DNA of 59,131 bases, taken from positions 1-59,131 of the forward strand of contig CAZRXW010000002.1 in assembly GCA_964604195.1 (NCBI GenBank), given 5' to 3'. The notes under the pieces were generated by a model that worked only from the letters and a program-made list of their open reading frames with translations, searched no databases and was not told where the DNA came from. Shown here piece after piece: positions 1 through 59,131 of this stretch. Position 1 is the stretch's first letter. Each line of letters opens with the position of its first letter. The DNA comes from an uncultured Bdellovibrionales bacterium (lineage in GTDB: Bacteria > Patescibacteriota > Minisyncoccia > Moranbacterales > UBA1568). A program made the position numbers and the translations under genes.

Positions 1-52
1 TCTTCAAATCCGCTCCTTTCAGAGTGTTACCTATGTATCTCATCTTCTTCAG
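1..52. repeat. Left arm of a perfect 52-bp inverted repeat located exactly at the two window termini
   Basis: Bases 1-52 are the exact reverse complement of 59080-59131. Identity ends at base 53/59079. How far it extends outward cannot be seen. Confidence 0.9.
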
Positions 53-64
53 TGTAGCAAACAT
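1..64 (-). CDS. 5' end of an ORF running off the left edge (MFATLKKMRYIGNTLKGADLK..., alternative ATG at 43), product unknown
   Basis: Open frame with ATGs at 64-62 and 43-41, immediately 3' of the DGR template repeat. The identical start (ATG 59089) runs off the right edge inside the other repeat arm. There is no sequence to assign a family. Confidence 0.25.
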   Translation of the reverse strand, partial: MFATLKKMRYIGNTLKGADLK

Positions 65-70
65 ACCTCT

Positions 71-104
71 GCAAAAAAGAAAAACCGCGACCTCTAGGTG
101 GCGG
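71..104 (-). terminator. Terminator-like hairpin plus T-run directly 3' of the template repeat (possibly DGR spacer RNA structure)
   Basis: Minus strand reads ccgccacct-ag-aggtcgcgg followed by tttttctttttt. The stem is 4+4 bp with one G/G mismatch. Confidence 0.35.
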
Positions 105-120
105 AAAAGACGATAGTTTC

Positions 121-246
121 GGGAGAGGAAGACCAACTGATTGTTGTCATTCCACCTATTGTCAGGCTGCGCATTGTTCGTGTTGAGCTTCAACCTGTCA
201 TCATCAGCATTGAGGTTGAACACGTTCAGGTTGCCATCGCGATCGG
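121..246 (-). repeat. DGR template repeat (TR), non-coding copy
   Basis: Aligns without gaps to 588-713 (offset 467). Of 27 mismatches in 126 bp, 25 are positions where this copy has A on the minus strand. The conceptual translation is Asn-rich (AAY codons): DGNLNVFNLNADDDRLKLNTNNAQPDNRWNDNNQLVFLSR. There is no start codon, and a TAA lies upstream in frame. Confidence 0.85.
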
Positions 247-552
247 TTGTGTATGCTCGGCCATCCGTACCACTGTCCGTCTGATTCACAATGTGTGAAA
301 AAGATTGGACTGTATTTTACTTGGGATCAAGAATCCACCAGACGAGCACACCAAGTATCTTCTTTTTTGAGAGTCTCAGTACCCTCCTCCGGAAAAAGCC
401 GTGACCGTCCGGATTCAGGGCAAGAGAATAGTCGATCAACCGTCGGTAAATCGTAACCAACCGATACCAGCTGACTAATATGAGTGTAGCGAAGAAAACA
501 AAAATTCCAAAGTGTCAAAGAATCCCAGATCCAAGATGTAAAAGCCAAAGGT

Positions 553-2544
553 TCAAAGAGACACTTGCTTGCCCGCCTCTGGCGGGCGGGAGAGGAAGAC
601 CAACTGACAGTAGCTATCCCACCAATCGCCAGGCCGCGCATAGGCCGCGTAGAGCTCCAACCCGTCAACACCAACACCGAGGCTGAACACGCGCAGGTCG
701 CCACCGCGATCGGCCACGGGTTCCATAGCTATGACTTTCCAGTCGGTTCCAGGATACTTAAGCCGAAGCTGTGGTCCGACTTCGGCAGGACAGAGCTCGA
801 GACCCGAAGATTTGGCTTTGTCGAATATTTTTCTGGTAGTGGCACCACTCGGGAAACCAAGCTCAGCGACAGTGAATTGGACCAGCTCGTACTGTTTTGA
901 TTCTTGGCTAAACTTGGTCTTGGAGAGTATGTCTTGGCCCCAGTCACCGAGGAAGATATTTTTTCTTTGCAATGCTTCCTCTGCTTTTAGAGGAGTATTG
1001 ATCTTGGGATCCGTTTCGAGGGTGTAGGTAAAAATCTTCTCTTCGGGGAACTGGGTATAGAGATGGTCGATATGAGAGAGGTGAGACTGGATGATCCGGT
1101 GTGTCTCGGGATTCCAGGGACCGACATAAGCCTTGGTATCCGCATTGACTTCACTCGGACTATGAGCGAGCTGATCAGGGCTACAGTCGAATATAGTGAG
1201 CATATCTTTCTCTGGGTTGCGACTTTTGCGAAGCTCGGCAATACGTGGGTCTTGTTCATAGCCAGACTGCCTGATTGGATGATCAATTTCGTAGAGGAAA
1301 GTGAGATCAGTTTTATCAAGGGGTTCTTGGCGTAGGTGCTTGAGGTGAATCCGTGCAAGCTCTCGCATATCAACCATTGTCCCTTGCCATTCGTCACCAC
1401 CCGGGAGAGATCGAAGTTTCTCTTCCACAACTGGGTTGATATAGTCATCCAAGTGCTGCTTAGCTTTCTCATTATTCATGATCCCCCGGACTTCGGTAAT
1501 GCCATGCTCCCCTGACTGGACGATACAGGCCCGCGGAATAACTAGATTTCCATCGGCATCCTCAGAATAGTAGACATAGATATCAGATTCTTCGAGATAT
1601 TTGGTCGCATAGCCTTCTCCTGCGATACACCACTGGGTTTGCCACTGGTTGAGGGTTTGAGTGAGATCATATGGATTACTTCCCTTGGGAAAGTGACGCC
1701 ATTTACCTTTTGTGATCGGGAGGCGCTCTTCGGGCAACTTGAGCGAACGAACATGTTCAAGTTCAAAGGCATAGAGTTTACTGAAATGAGCTGATTTCAG
1801 TAAAGCCTCAAGATTGCCCCGCTTTGAATCGTCTAGTACTTGAGCAGTGGTTTGACCCAATGCTTTCGCTTTGACCGCATCAAACACCCAGGCCAAGGCT
1901 TGCTGGTTGAGTTCAGGGAAAGAAGCAATCGTGTTCTCAGTACGTTTGTTCCAAGTTTTACGCGTTTCGTCATAATTTCCTAGTTTGAGCATTTCAGCAA
2001 AAGCCCAGTAGCGGAAAGCTGAATCAACATTTATAGCTTCTGGTCCAGTGAGATAATCGAACCATTGGTTGAGGCGAGCTGTTTGGTCATCAATCACTAT
2101 CGCTTGAACTCGCTTCCGTTCTTCATCAGGTATAGCATAAGTTGCAAAGTCTTGGCTGGTAGACTGTTCGAATTGAGAGAGGATTTCTAGTCGGAGTATC
2201 TCATCATTCAGAGCATCTCGTTCATACCCATGGCGCTCCGCGAAATTCCCGAGAAGGACGCCTTTAATATACTCATCGGTGATATTTTCAGGTTGAGTGA
2301 TGTACTGGGGATAAATGGCTTGCTTGAGAAAAAGACGTCCTCGTTCTCCAGTTGCTCGATCAGTTCTTTTGGTAATCCGTTCAATACGAGCGAGGTACTC
2401 GGGAATCCGGTCCTCAAGTTTTGGAGGAATTTTCTCTAACTTCTTTAAGCGTTTAGCCCTATGGACAGTGTCTTCGACTGCTCCACGAAATTCTGACTTG
2501 GTGCCATAGTAGGATTTAAGGAATAAGGTTTCGGGAGAAGGCAT
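553..2544 (-). CDS. DGR target protein (663 aa), variable C-terminal ~45 residues, N-terminal body of unknown family
   Basis: Long ORF whose last ~130 nt are the variable repeat. The C-terminus ...DRGGDLRVFSLGVGVDGLELYAAYARPGDWWDSYCQLVFLSR loosely resembles C-type-lectin-fold DGR variable regions (RGG...P..R....F-[RL]). Confidence 0.8.
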   Translation of the reverse strand: MPSPETLFLKSYYGTKSEFRGAVEDTVHRAKRLKKLEKIPPKLEDRIPEYLARIERITKRTDRATGERGRLFLKQAIYPQYITQPENITDEYIKGVLLGNFAERHGYERDALNDEILRLEILSQFEQSTSQDFATYAIPDEERKRVQAIVIDDQTARLNQWFDYLTGPEAINVDSAFRYWAFAEMLKLGNYDETRKTWNKRTENTIASFPELNQQALAWVFDAVKAKALGQTTAQVLDDSKRGNLEALLKSAHFSKLYAFELEHVRSLKLPEERLPITKGKWRHFPKGSNPYDLTQTLNQWQTQWCIAGEGYATKYLEESDIYVYYSEDADGNLVIPRACIVQSGEHGITEVRGIMNNEKAKQHLDDYINPVVEEKLRSLPGGDEWQGTMVDMRELARIHLKHLRQEPLDKTDLTFLYEIDHPIRQSGYEQDPRIAELRKSRNPEKDMLTIFDCSPDQLAHSPSEVNADTKAYVGPWNPETHRIIQSHLSHIDHLYTQFPEEKIFTYTLETDPKINTPLKAEEALQRKNIFLGDWGQDILSKTKFSQESKQYELVQFTVAELGFPSGATTRKIFDKAKSSGLELCPAEVGPQLRLKYPGTDWKVIAMEPVADRGGDLRVFSLGVGVDGLELYAAYARPGDWWDSYCQLVFLSRPPEAGKQVSL
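571..587 (-). promoter_or_regulatory. GC-rich hairpin immediately 3' of the variable repeat (candidate DGR target-recognition stem-loop)
   Basis: gcccgcc-tct-ggcgggc is a perfect 7-bp stem that abuts the invariant 20-bp end of VR (588-607). It is absent at the corresponding TR position. Confidence 0.55.
588..713 (-). repeat. DGR variable repeat (VR) inside the 3' end of the 663-aa gene
   Basis: Counterpart of TR 121-246. The first 20 bp (588-607, the 3' end on the coding strand) are identical to TR, like an IMH. The substitutions elsewhere fall at TR adenines. Confidence 0.85.
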
Positions 2545-8748: not shown

Positions 8749-10230
<1,482 letters not shown>

Positions 10231-59079: not shown

Positions 59080-59131
59080 CTGAAGAAGATGAGATACATA
59101 GGTAACACTCTGAAAGGAGCGGATTTGAAGA
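59080..59131. repeat. Right arm of the 52-bp terminal inverted repeat
   Basis: Exact reverse complement of 1-52. It contains the same ORF start (ATG 59089, plus strand) running off the edge. Confidence 0.9.

What the first reader, a model, noticed from the sequence alone, without database searches (positions are those of the whole stretch)
121..2544. Diversity-generating retroelement signature: adenine-specific TR/VR pair at the 3' end of a 663-aa gene
Segments 121-246 and 588-713 align base for base without gaps. Of the 27 mismatches, 25 are positions where the non-coding copy (121-246) has A on the minus strand and the coding copy has C, G or T. The two exceptions are a G-to-A and a C-to-T. 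The 20 bp at the 3' end (121-140 and 588-607) are identical, as expected for an IMH-like anchor. The template copy translates into an Asn-rich (AAY) string. The variable copy forms the last ~45 codons of a real ORF. This is the diagnostic pattern of DGR mutagenic retrohoming. The target N-terminal body matches no family I recognise, so both the ligand-binding scaffold and its function are open. No reverse transcriptase (YxDD-type ORF) is present in the window, so it must lie off the left edge or elsewhere.
Basis: partly seen in the sequence, partly recalled or inferred. Interest (0 to 1): 0.85.

Follow-up and report, generated by a model that had tools for sequence, protein, structure and literature searches.

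The report
IS-truncated diversity-generating retroelement locus
This is a genuine diversity-generating retroelement of the type common in tiny "candidate phyla radiation" bacteria, but a mobile insertion element has cut off its enzyme genes, so it is an ordinary and probably disabled example.

Summary
Window 120-246 (TR) and 587-713 (VR) align without gaps over 127 nt. Of 27 mismatches, 25 sit at TR adenines on the minus strand (P about 4e-12), and all fall at codon positions 1 or 2. VR forms codons 611-653 of a 663-aa ORF.

Relatives of the target protein form a large Patescibacteria/DPANN family. In 29 of 80 GTDB loci the gene is followed by the same cassette: conserved non-coding leader, TR, avd on the opposite strand, RT. 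This is the known "B3" architecture of CPR DGRs, so the DGR reading is supported.

Only the last 14 codons of avd remain (53-97, + strand). They abut the end of a 1134-bp rve-type IS element (window 1-51), and an inverted copy ends the other end of the contig (59081-59131). No RT or intact avd is present. All 10 independent contigs that reach this point carry the same junction. What lies beyond the IS is unresolved.

A side finding is that the roughly 210-nt leader upstream of TR is a strongly covarying structured RNA with no Rfam match.

Verdict: a new member of a known kind. Interest is modest.

The parts
553..2544 (-). DGR target gene, 663 aa. It has an N-terminal module of about 540 aa with unknown function and a C-terminal VR-bearing domain of about 120 aa.
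   Evidence: ORF listed. There are 497 homologues at E<=1e-3, from Patescibacteria and DPANN. No Pfam, NCBIfam or PDB match. AF2 pLDDT is 87.7.
587..713 (-). Variable repeat (VR), codons about 611-653. The last 21 nt (587-607) are identical to TR, as expected for an IMH.
571..587 (-). GC-rich hairpin GCCCGCC-AGA-GGCGGGC immediately 3' of VR. It is absent after TR.
   Evidence: Read directly from the sequence. It corresponds to the inverted repeat downstream of IMH described for the Bordetella phage DGR (PMC5758913).
483..491 (-). -10-like box CGCTACACT. It aligns with a family-wide extended -10, TGnTATAAT.
   Evidence: Alignment A3. It was not called by the simple promoter scan because there is no -35.
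271..481 (-). Structured non-coding leader 5' of TR. Window coordinates: hairpin 1 at 443-465; hairpin 2 at 389-412; A-tract plus ACTTGGTGTG at 347-371; hairpin 3 at 324-336; AAGTAAAATACAG at 310-322; hairpin 4 at 271-310.
   Evidence: RNAalifold on 18 loci predicts 45 pairs, 36 of them with compensatory changes. 93.8% of cells are paired, against 37-49% when partners are slid, and 0 of 500 shuffles reach this value. No Rfam match.
120..246 (-). Template repeat (TR). It is non-coding and rich in AAY codons.
73..104 (-). Hairpin CCGCCACC-TAGA-GGTCGCGG followed by TTTTTCTTTTTT. It could be a terminator, an Avd-binding stem-loop, or both.
   Evidence: Conserved in 21 loci, with compensatory changes in 3 of 5 pairs. 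It was not called by the simple terminator scan. A 'putative Avd-binding stem-loop just downstream of TR' is described in bioRxiv 10.1101/2023.10.23.563531.
53..97 (+). 3' remnant of the accessory gene avd: 14 codons plus the stop, CSKHTSAKKKNRDL*.
   Evidence: AAG AAA AAC CGC (KKNR), two further codons and a stop, at the position where relatives' Avd ends ..NPEKKNRTM* and ..NPEKKNRVF*. Upstream of codon -14 the sequence is IS, not avd.
1..51 (-). First 51 nt (left inverted repeat) of a 1134-bp IS element encoding a 347-aa HTH plus rve/rve_3 transposase. The contig ends here.
   Evidence: Window 1-52 equals the reverse complement of 59080-59131. The repeat continues for 1134 nt in L103, L110 and L114. 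The terminal inverted repeats are shown.
59081..59131 (+). The same IS end in inverted orientation at the other end of the contig.

Best explanation
The locus is a chromosomal diversity-generating retroelement of the CPR (Patescibacteria) type. Its architecture is target(VR) - leader - TR - (avd, opposite strand) - RT, the 'B3' architecture.

Shown here:
- The TR/VR pair carries adenine-specific substitutions confined to codon positions 1 and 2.
- There is an IMH-like identical 3' end, followed by a GC hairpin after VR only.
- A conserved, covarying RNA leader lies 5' of TR, and a hairpin plus U-run lies 3' of TR.
- A 14-codon 3' stump of avd abuts the end of a multicopy IS element that terminates the contig.
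- The same target family sits next to intact avd and RT genes in many other genomes.

Inferred from the established DGR mechanism (Bordetella phage BPP-1):
- A leader-TR RNA was reverse-transcribed by an RT-Avd complex that misincorporates opposite template adenines.
- The cDNA replaced VR, rewriting up to 36 adenine-templated positions in about 26 codons of the C-terminal binding domain.

Inferred for this copy:
- The IS insertion, possibly followed by IS-mediated rearrangement, separated TR from avd and RT and destroyed the avd reading frame.
- Diversification is therefore now off unless an RT-Avd pair is supplied from elsewhere in the genome, and the present VR is a frozen product of past activity.
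For: - A-bias and codon-position bias.
- Homologous loci L013-L017 and 28 further GTDB loci have a VR at the same place, a TR 300-480 nt downstream, and bAvd and RVT_1 genes. Mismatches there are only or mostly at TR adenines.
- The B3 architecture makes up 90% of the CPR DGR set (PMC5758913). CPR DGRs form their own clade, and their targets lack recognisable domains (PMC8144416).
- Leader structure. The leader stays upstream of TR in the inverted cassettes L050, L059 and L066 (alignment A3). The strict composite motif, which matches L050 and L066 but not L059, is found in 22 of 33 TR-positive loci and 1 of 53 TR-negative loci.
- avd stump and IS junction.
- The same junction is present in all 9 contigs carrying the exact target protein that reach it, from 9 different sequencing runs or assemblies, and also in L110 and L114.
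- The contig break points fit a repeat boundary. Contigs run 27-28 nt into the IS in Logan assemblies, 51-52 nt in the window, and 139 nt in a contig named k141.
- There is no RT or intact avd in the window.
- Two non-adenine TR/VR differences exist, and no VR variant of this protein is present in a 15-billion-protein collection even though it was found on at least 15 contigs.
Against: - No RT was seen for this genome, so 'DGR' rests on the TR/VR signature plus homology of the cassette.
- Inactivity is not proven. TR, leader, both hairpins and the VR reading frame are all intact.
- Two non-A mismatches lie within the range seen in relatives with intact avd and RT (0-6).
- Relatives with intact cassettes also show almost no VR variants in the database. 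P0014 has the same sequence on 21 contigs and one V>A variant.
- The IS copies are 100% identical over 1134 nt, so the insertion may be recent.
- The only contig that crosses the IS (L110) joins it to uvrA rather than to avd or RT. However, other contigs join one 5' flank to different 3' flanks, so such links are unreliable.
Confidence: 0.8

Rival explanations
1. The DGR is complete and still active. Either the IS is a simple insertion, with the rest of avd (lacking only a basic 14-residue tail) and the RT lying just beyond it, or a second DGR cassette in the genome supplies RT-Avd in trans. In both cases VR still diversifies.
For: All cis elements on the target and TR side are intact. The count of non-A mismatches is within the range of intact loci. 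The leader is conserved across the family, so a paralogous RT-Avd could recognise it. Some relatives have two TR copies or duplicated target ends with one RT (L051 and L020).
Against: The avd reading frame is interrupted in every sampled population. None of the IS 3' flanks recovered (uvrA, tuf, a methyltransferase-like gene and one other) is avd or RT. No VR variant is known. In the Bordetella system Avd and the RNA flanking TR are both required for cDNA synthesis.
Confidence: 0.17
2. The IS junction is an assembly artefact, and avd and RT follow TR normally in the real genome.
For: IS elements commonly cause misassemblies. Contigs that traverse this IS are demonstrably inconsistent with each other.
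Against: The junction itself (TR - hairpin - 14 avd codons - IS end) is identical in the window, in 8 Logan contigs and 1 ENA contig carrying the exact target protein, and in L110 and L114, which come from different runs and assemblers. No contig shows TR followed by an intact avd.
Confidence: 0.02
3. This is not a retroelement product. It is an ordinary local duplication of the gene's 3' end that diverged by point mutation or gene conversion.
For: None beyond the existence of a direct repeat.
Against: The A-specific bias has P about 4e-12 and there are no third-position changes. The non-coding copy is the one rich in AAY. Homologous loci pair the same repeat with avd and RT.
Confidence: 0.01

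Closest known systems
CPR/DPANN DGRs with architecture B3, TR-(avd)-RT (Wu et al. 2018, PMC5758913; Paul et al. 2017, cited from memory because the paper was not readable here; DGR clade 2 of Roux et al. 2021, PMC8144416)
   Same: The order and strands match in relatives: target(VR), TR, avd on the opposite strand, RT. The host group is Patescibacteria. The target has no recognisable domain, signal peptide or TM segment annotation. The TR is rich in AAY.
   Different: In this copy avd is reduced to 14 codons by an IS, and no RT is linked. I could not check whether this particular target family is one of the published 'UVR' classes.
Bordetella phage BPP-1 DGR (mtd-avd-TR-Sp-brt)
   Same: Adenine-specific TR-to-VR information transfer. 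VR lies at the C-terminus of the target. There is an IMH-like identical end plus a GC inverted repeat after VR only. A stem-loop lies directly 3' of TR.
   Different: In BPP-1 all genes are on one strand, and the functional non-coding RNA (the 140-nt Sp) lies 3' of TR. Here avd is antisense directly 3' of TR, and the large conserved structured RNA lies 5' of TR.
C-type-lectin-fold variable proteins (Mtd, TvpA, archaeal AvpA, TaqVP)
   Same: The domain is a small alpha/beta C-terminal domain with secondary-structure order beta-alpha-alpha-beta-beta-beta-beta. VR covers the last strands and loops. Scaffold residues (V, F, L, A, P, W, F) are encoded by A-free codons.
   Different: No significant structural match was found. 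The best PDB neighbours are CTLDs (rhodocetin, BDCA2, Bd2740 C-terminal domain) at TM 0.35-0.48 and E>0.1. None of the solved DGR variable proteins appears among the top 50 matches shown for either model.
rve-type DDE insertion sequences (IS481/IS3 superfamily; JGI names relatives 'transposase InsO family')
   Same: A single 347-aa ORF with HTH and rve/rve_3 domains. Imperfect terminal inverted repeats of about 22 bp. Many identical copies sit in different flanks. A 3'-end to 5'-end junction, as in a circle or tandem copy, is seen in P0128.
   Different: No target-site duplication could be verified. Exact IS family assignment was not tested against ISfinder.

Membership tests
Diversity-generating retroelement (DGR) | A near-identical TR/VR pair whose differences fall at adenines of the TR | tested here: met
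   25 of 27 mismatches are at TR adenines, P=3.8e-12.
Diversity-generating retroelement (DGR) | VR lies inside a protein-coding target gene, in frame, and TR adenines sit at codon positions 1 and 2 (AAY codons) | tested here: met
   VR is codons 611-653 of a 663-aa ORF. No TR adenine is at position 3. 11 of 42 codons are AAY.
Diversity-generating retroelement (DGR) | IMH at the VR 3' end versus a non-identical IMH* at the TR end, with a GC inverted repeat after VR only | tested here: met
   21 nt are identical, after which VR continues GCCCGCCAGAGGCGGGC and TR continues AAACTATCG. This is sequence-level evidence only.
Diversity-generating retroelement (DGR) | A DGR-clade reverse transcriptase gene linked to the TR | tested here: not met
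   No RT is present in the 59 kb. The contig ends in an IS 69 nt after TR. The rest of the genome was not available, so absence from the genome is not shown.
Diversity-generating retroelement (DGR) | An accessory gene (avd) next to the TR, as expected for architecture B | tested here: not met
   Only the last 14 codons and the stop remain (53-97, + strand). The rest is replaced by the IS.
Diversity-generating retroelement (DGR) | Orthologous loci carry the complete cassette | tested here: met
   29 of 80 GTDB loci, plus L013-L016, have an A-biased TR/VR pair. In those whose contigs extend far enough it is followed by bAvd and RVT_1.
Diversity-generating retroelement (DGR) | Ongoing VR hypervariation within populations | tested here: inconclusive
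   The 90%-identity cluster holds one sequence on at least 15 contigs. Intact relatives look equally invariant in consensus assemblies. Reads were not available.
C-type lectin fold variable protein | The VR domain adopts the CLec fold | tested here: inconclusive
   The AF2 domain model has pLDDT 88.7. Foldseek against PDB and BFVD gave nothing at E<1e-3. CTLDs recur among weak hits at TM 0.35-0.48.
rve-type IS element | A DDE (rve) transposase, terminal inverted repeats, and multiple identical copies in different contexts | tested here: met
   PF00665/PF13683 plus HTH domains. Inverted repeats TGAAGAAGATGAGATACATAGGT and TGTACAAGATGAG-TACATAGGT. Identical 1134-nt copies with at least 7 different 5' flanks. 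A target-site duplication was not verified.

The most novel reading that the evidence does not exclude
In the B3-type DGRs of CPR bacteria, the RNA elements that recruit RT-Avd and set up priming may be carried by a structured leader of about 210 nt located 5' of the TR. The leader has two hairpins with the conserved loop motif CGGYTAMGGCTT, a third hairpin, and conserved single-stranded tracts. In the Bordetella paradigm these elements lie in a spacer 3' of the TR, so this would be a permuted DGR RNA. In addition, the RT of this clade may be switched on and off by slippage of a (GA)n tract inside its 5' coding region. The window carries an intact copy of the leader but has lost the RT side.
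Probability: 0.35. Interest if true: 0.65.

Novelty: new member of a known kind. Interest (0 to 1): 0.35.

Why it matters
As a DGR, this locus adds nothing categorically new. CPR bacteria are already known to be rich in DGRs with exactly this layout and with targets of unknown function.

It is useful in three smaller ways:
- It is a clean natural example of a DGR disabled by an IS insertion, with all target-side cis elements still intact. It can therefore serve as a "frozen VR" control for population studies.
- The target family is large (hundreds of members in Patescibacteria and DPANN). It occurs with and without a DGR, and its N-terminal module of about 470 aa is also fused to other C-terminal domains. 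That makes it a good system for asking what CPR cells diversify and why.
- The comparison set assembled here exposes a strongly covarying leader RNA 5' of the TR, and a (GA)n tract in the RT gene. If confirmed, these bear on how the most common DGR architecture in nature primes reverse transcription and how it is regulated.

Tried and rejected
1. Extending the contig. Exact-pattern scans for the post-TR/IS sequence found nothing in GTDB genomes, JGI metagenomes or IMG/VR.

2. Looking for the RT beyond the IS.
   - I looked up the transposase and several of its C-terminal read-through variants.
   - The flanks recovered are uvrA, tuf, a methyltransferase-like gene and others. None is avd or RT.
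   - Contigs crossing the IS pair flanks inconsistently, so I do not rely on the TR-IS-uvrA link in L110.

3. An apparent Avd-like stretch (SVTYVSHLLQCSKH) just left of the stump turned out to lie inside the IS. I rejected it as a chance match.

4. A 28-codon ORF after the TR (MFATLKKMRY...), which might have been an RT start, ends in a stop within the IS. It is not an RT.

5. VR invariance across samples as evidence of inactivity. I downgraded this because intact relatives show the same invariance.

6. Function of the target. Pfam, NCBIfam, a PDB sequence profile, and Foldseek against PDB and BFVD all found nothing significant.

7. The Rfam search, which includes the RT-1 to RT-19 motifs of Weinberg et al. 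2017, found no match to the leader.

8. The simple promoter and terminator scan did not call the -10-like box or the post-TR hairpin in the window.

9. Paul et al. 2017 could not be read.
Full report
**1. The observation**

The repeat finder returns 120-246 versus 587-713, 127 nt, ungapped, 79% identical. On the minus strand, which is the coding strand of ORF 553..2544, 25 of the 27 mismatches have A in the downstream non-coding copy: A>G 17, A>T 6, A>C 2. The other two are C>T and G>A.
- 25 of the 36 TR adenines are changed.
- The probability of such a concentration on adenines is 3.8e-12.
- Every mismatch is at codon position 1 or 2. The TR has no adenine at a third position, and 11 of its 42 codons are AAY.
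- The 3'-terminal 21 nt are identical. After them VR runs into a GC hairpin (GCCCGCC-AGA-GGCGGGC, 571-587), whereas TR continues with unrelated A/T-rich sequence. This is the IMH / IMH* / inverted-repeat arrangement known from the Bordetella phage element (PMC5758913).
- No RT is encoded in the 59 kb.

**2. What the target is**

The 663-aa protein has no Pfam, NCBIfam or PDB-sequence match, but it is not an orphan.
- 497 relatives were found at E<=1e-3. Nearly all named ones come from Patescibacteria (CPR), with some from DPANN archaea.
- About a third of the best hits align over the full length at 38-53% identity. The others share only the N-terminal 70% or so and carry different C-termini.
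- The window is itself a whole 59,131-bp contig.
- AlphaFold with 40 homologues gives a confident model, pLDDT 87.7, which has no significant neighbour in the PDB.
- The C-terminal 119 residues, modelled alone, reach pLDDT 88.7 with secondary-structure order beta-alpha-alpha-beta-beta-beta-beta. They recurrently but weakly hit C-type-lectin-like domains: rhodocetin, BDCA2 and the Bdellovibrio Bd2740 C-terminal domain, at TM 0.35-0.48 and E>0.1. Nothing significant appears among viral models.
- A CLec-like fold is therefore plausible but not shown.
- In the family alignment the conserved VR residues (G615, V619, F620, L631, A636, W642, F650) are those encoded by A-free TR codons. The positions between them vary freely.

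**3. Evidence from related loci**

Contigs carrying relatives P0014 and P0025 show this order: target, about 300 nt of spacer, a TR with only A-type mismatches (20/20 and 19/19), bAvd (PF22296) on the opposite strand starting about 16 nt after the TR, then an RVT_1 gene on the target's strand.

I also scanned one genome per GTDB species and recovered 80 loci, nearly all titled as Patescibacteria-group or unclassified 'uncultured' MAGs.
- 29 have an A-biased TR/VR pair with this geometry.
- Three of these (L050, L059, L066) have the TR-avd-RT unit inverted relative to the target.
- About 30 loci with at least 2 kb of downstream DNA have no TR, avd or RT.
- A few look decayed: L073 and L077 have a TR but no RT, and L063 and L038 have only avd fragments.

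This is the 'B3' architecture TR-(avd)-RT, which Wu et al. report for 90% of CPR DGRs (PMC5758913). Roux et al. place CPR DGRs in their own clade, with targets that lack recognisable domains (PMC8144416). The window therefore holds a member of a known and common kind of DGR.

**4. What is at the left edge**

Aligning the window with the relatives shows everything conserved up to and including the post-TR hairpin and the last codons of avd. Window 53-97 on the + strand reads CSKHTSAKKKNRDL*, and relatives end ..NPEKKNRTM* or ..NPEKKNRVF*. Homology then stops.
- The outermost 51-52 nt of the window are repeated in inverted orientation at the other end of the contig, at 59080-59131.
- Contigs from other samples continue this repeat for 1134 nt. 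It is an IS element with a 347-aa HTH plus rve/rve_3 transposase and imperfect terminal inverted repeats. Identical copies sit in many different flanks.
- Contig break points behave as expected for a repeat boundary. Contigs run 27-28 nt into the IS in the Logan assemblies, 51-52 nt in the window, and 139 nt in a contig named k141.
- The TR / avd-stump / IS junction is identical in all 9 contigs that carry the exact target protein and reach that point, from 9 different runs or assemblies. It is also identical in L110 and L114.

So avd is truncated 14 codons before its stop in every sampled population, and the RT is not linked to the TR.

**5. What lies beyond the IS is unresolved**

One megahit contig (L110) crosses the IS and continues into the start of uvrA, with no avd or RT. 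However, other contigs join one 5' flank to different 3' flanks, and the reverse: L123 versus L126, and L123 versus L124. Traversals of this identical multicopy IS therefore cannot be trusted. None of the recovered 3' flanks is avd or RT. Exact-pattern scans of GTDB genomes, JGI metagenomes and IMG/VR found no further copy of the junction.

**6. Mechanism and present state**

By homology with the characterised Bordetella system, the TR RNA would be copied by RT-Avd with misincorporation opposite adenines, and the cDNA would replace VR. The 25 A-specific differences are the record of that process. For this copy the accessory gene is broken and the RT is unlinked, so I consider it probably inactive in cis, at about 0.6 within the overall explanation.

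Points against over-reading this:
- All cis elements on the target and TR side are intact.
- Two non-A mismatches lie within the range (0-6) of loci with intact cassettes.
- The absence of VR variants in the database is also seen for intact relatives.
- The IS copies are identical, so the insertion may be recent.
- Supply of RT-Avd in trans from another cassette cannot be excluded.

**7. A conserved structured RNA 5' of the TR (side result)**

In all 26 aligned loci, the 230 nt or so between the target's end and the TR are conserved. This includes the three loci where the cassette is inverted, so the element belongs to the TR unit and not to the target's 3' UTR.
- It begins with an extended -10 box (TGnTATAAT; the window has the weaker CGCTACACT at 483-491).
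- It is followed by two hairpins with the conserved loop CGGYTAMGGCTT, an A-rich tract plus ACTTGGTGTG, a third hairpin, AATAAAATACAG, and a fourth hairpin that leads into the TR.
- RNAalifold on 18 sequences predicts 45 pairs, 36 of them with compensatory double changes.
- On that structure 93.8% of cells pair, against 37-49% when partners are slid by 1-3 columns, and 0 of 500 column shuffles reach the observed values.
- A strict composite motif occurs in 22 of 33 TR-positive loci, always just upstream of the TR on its strand. It occurs in 1 of 53 TR-negative loci, and that one is a decayed DGR.
- Rfam has no match in the window or in relatives.

In the Bordetella element the essential non-coding RNA lies 3' of the TR, and only 20 nt upstream are needed. 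A published survey of other DGRs examined only 40 nt upstream of the TR. Here the 3' side is occupied by antisense avd after a short hairpin and U-run. That hairpin resembles the 'Avd-binding stem-loop just downstream of TR' described in that survey. The 5' leader may therefore carry the RT-Avd recruiting functions in this architecture. This is inference, and I could not check Paul et al. 2017 for prior description.

**8. Other things seen**

- Most intact relatives have a (GA)n tract of 10-45 nt inside the 5' end of the RT ORF. L013 and L014, the same element from two samples, differ by one GA unit (44 versus 42 nt). The conserved N-terminal peptide is out of frame with the RT body in L013 and in frame in L014. 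Over 13 loci the split is 6 in frame and 7 out of frame. This looks like slipped-strand phase variation of the RT. A full-text search found no paper linking DGRs with such repeats.
- The L013 and L014 cassettes are also inverted relative to a flanking block containing serine recombinases.

**9. Verdict**

- The DGR interpretation is supported, with the correction that the element in the window is an IS-truncated copy with no linked RT.
- It is a new member of a known kind.
- Interest is modest (0.35). The leader RNA and the (GA)n tract in the wider family are the parts most worth following up.

Noticed in passing
L013:10895-10938 and L014:10895-10936; also L015, L017, L027, L032, L080, L085, L088, L091, L095: A (GA)n tract of 10-45 nt lies inside the 5' coding end of the DGR RT and encodes (ER)n. 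The same element differs by one GA unit between two samples. That difference puts the conserved N-terminal peptide MRDNAHPKQIPLF out of frame (L013) or in frame (L014) with the RT body. Across 13 loci, 6 are in frame and 7 are out of frame. This looks like slipped-strand phase variation of DGR activity.
   Followed up: partly
window 271-491 (- strand); L013:10172-10385, L015:10050-10263 and 20+ other loci: A conserved, strongly covarying structured RNA leader of about 210 nt lies immediately 5' of the TR. It is preceded by a TGnTATAAT box and has no Rfam match. It travels with the TR when the cassette is inverted.
   Followed up: yes
window 1-51 and 59081-59131; L103, L107-L126: The 59-kb contig is bounded by inverted copies of a 1134-bp rve-type IS. 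The transposase ORF has no stop inside the IS and reads into the flank, which produces many C-terminal variants. The 3' flanks begin with 3-4 nt followed by CTTGAC, CTTGAA or CTCGAC (resembling a -35 box) upstream of genes such as uvrA and tuf. One variant (P0128) encodes an IS 3'-end to 5'-end junction, as in a circle or tandem copy.
   Followed up: partly
L013 versus L014 (whole loci): The target-TR-avd-RT cassette is inverted relative to a neighbouring block (Zn-ribbon recombinase, resolvase, Polbeta, NYN, PemK) in two samples. Large serine recombinase genes flank it. The DGR cassette may be invertible or mobile.
   Followed up: no
window 1135-2544 (- strand), residues 1-470 of the target; P0047-P0120: The N-terminal module of about 470 aa is a large CPR/DPANN family with no Pfam, NCBIfam or PDB match. 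Invariant residues include W305, C306, R338, E351, R353, G354 and Q363. It is also found fused to other C-terminal domains (LRR and others) and occurs without any DGR. The AF2 model is confident but has no structural neighbour.
   Followed up: partly
L051:6454-6923 / 9560-10029 and L020:6583-7012 / 8823-9252: Some relatives carry a second, 99-100% identical copy of the target's 3' end, and L051 also has two TR copies next to one avd-RT pair. These look like multi-target or recently duplicated cassettes.
   Followed up: no
window 450: A single SNP (T in the window, C in L110) is the only difference over 626 nt between the window and a contig from another sample. The VR is identical in both.
   Followed up: no
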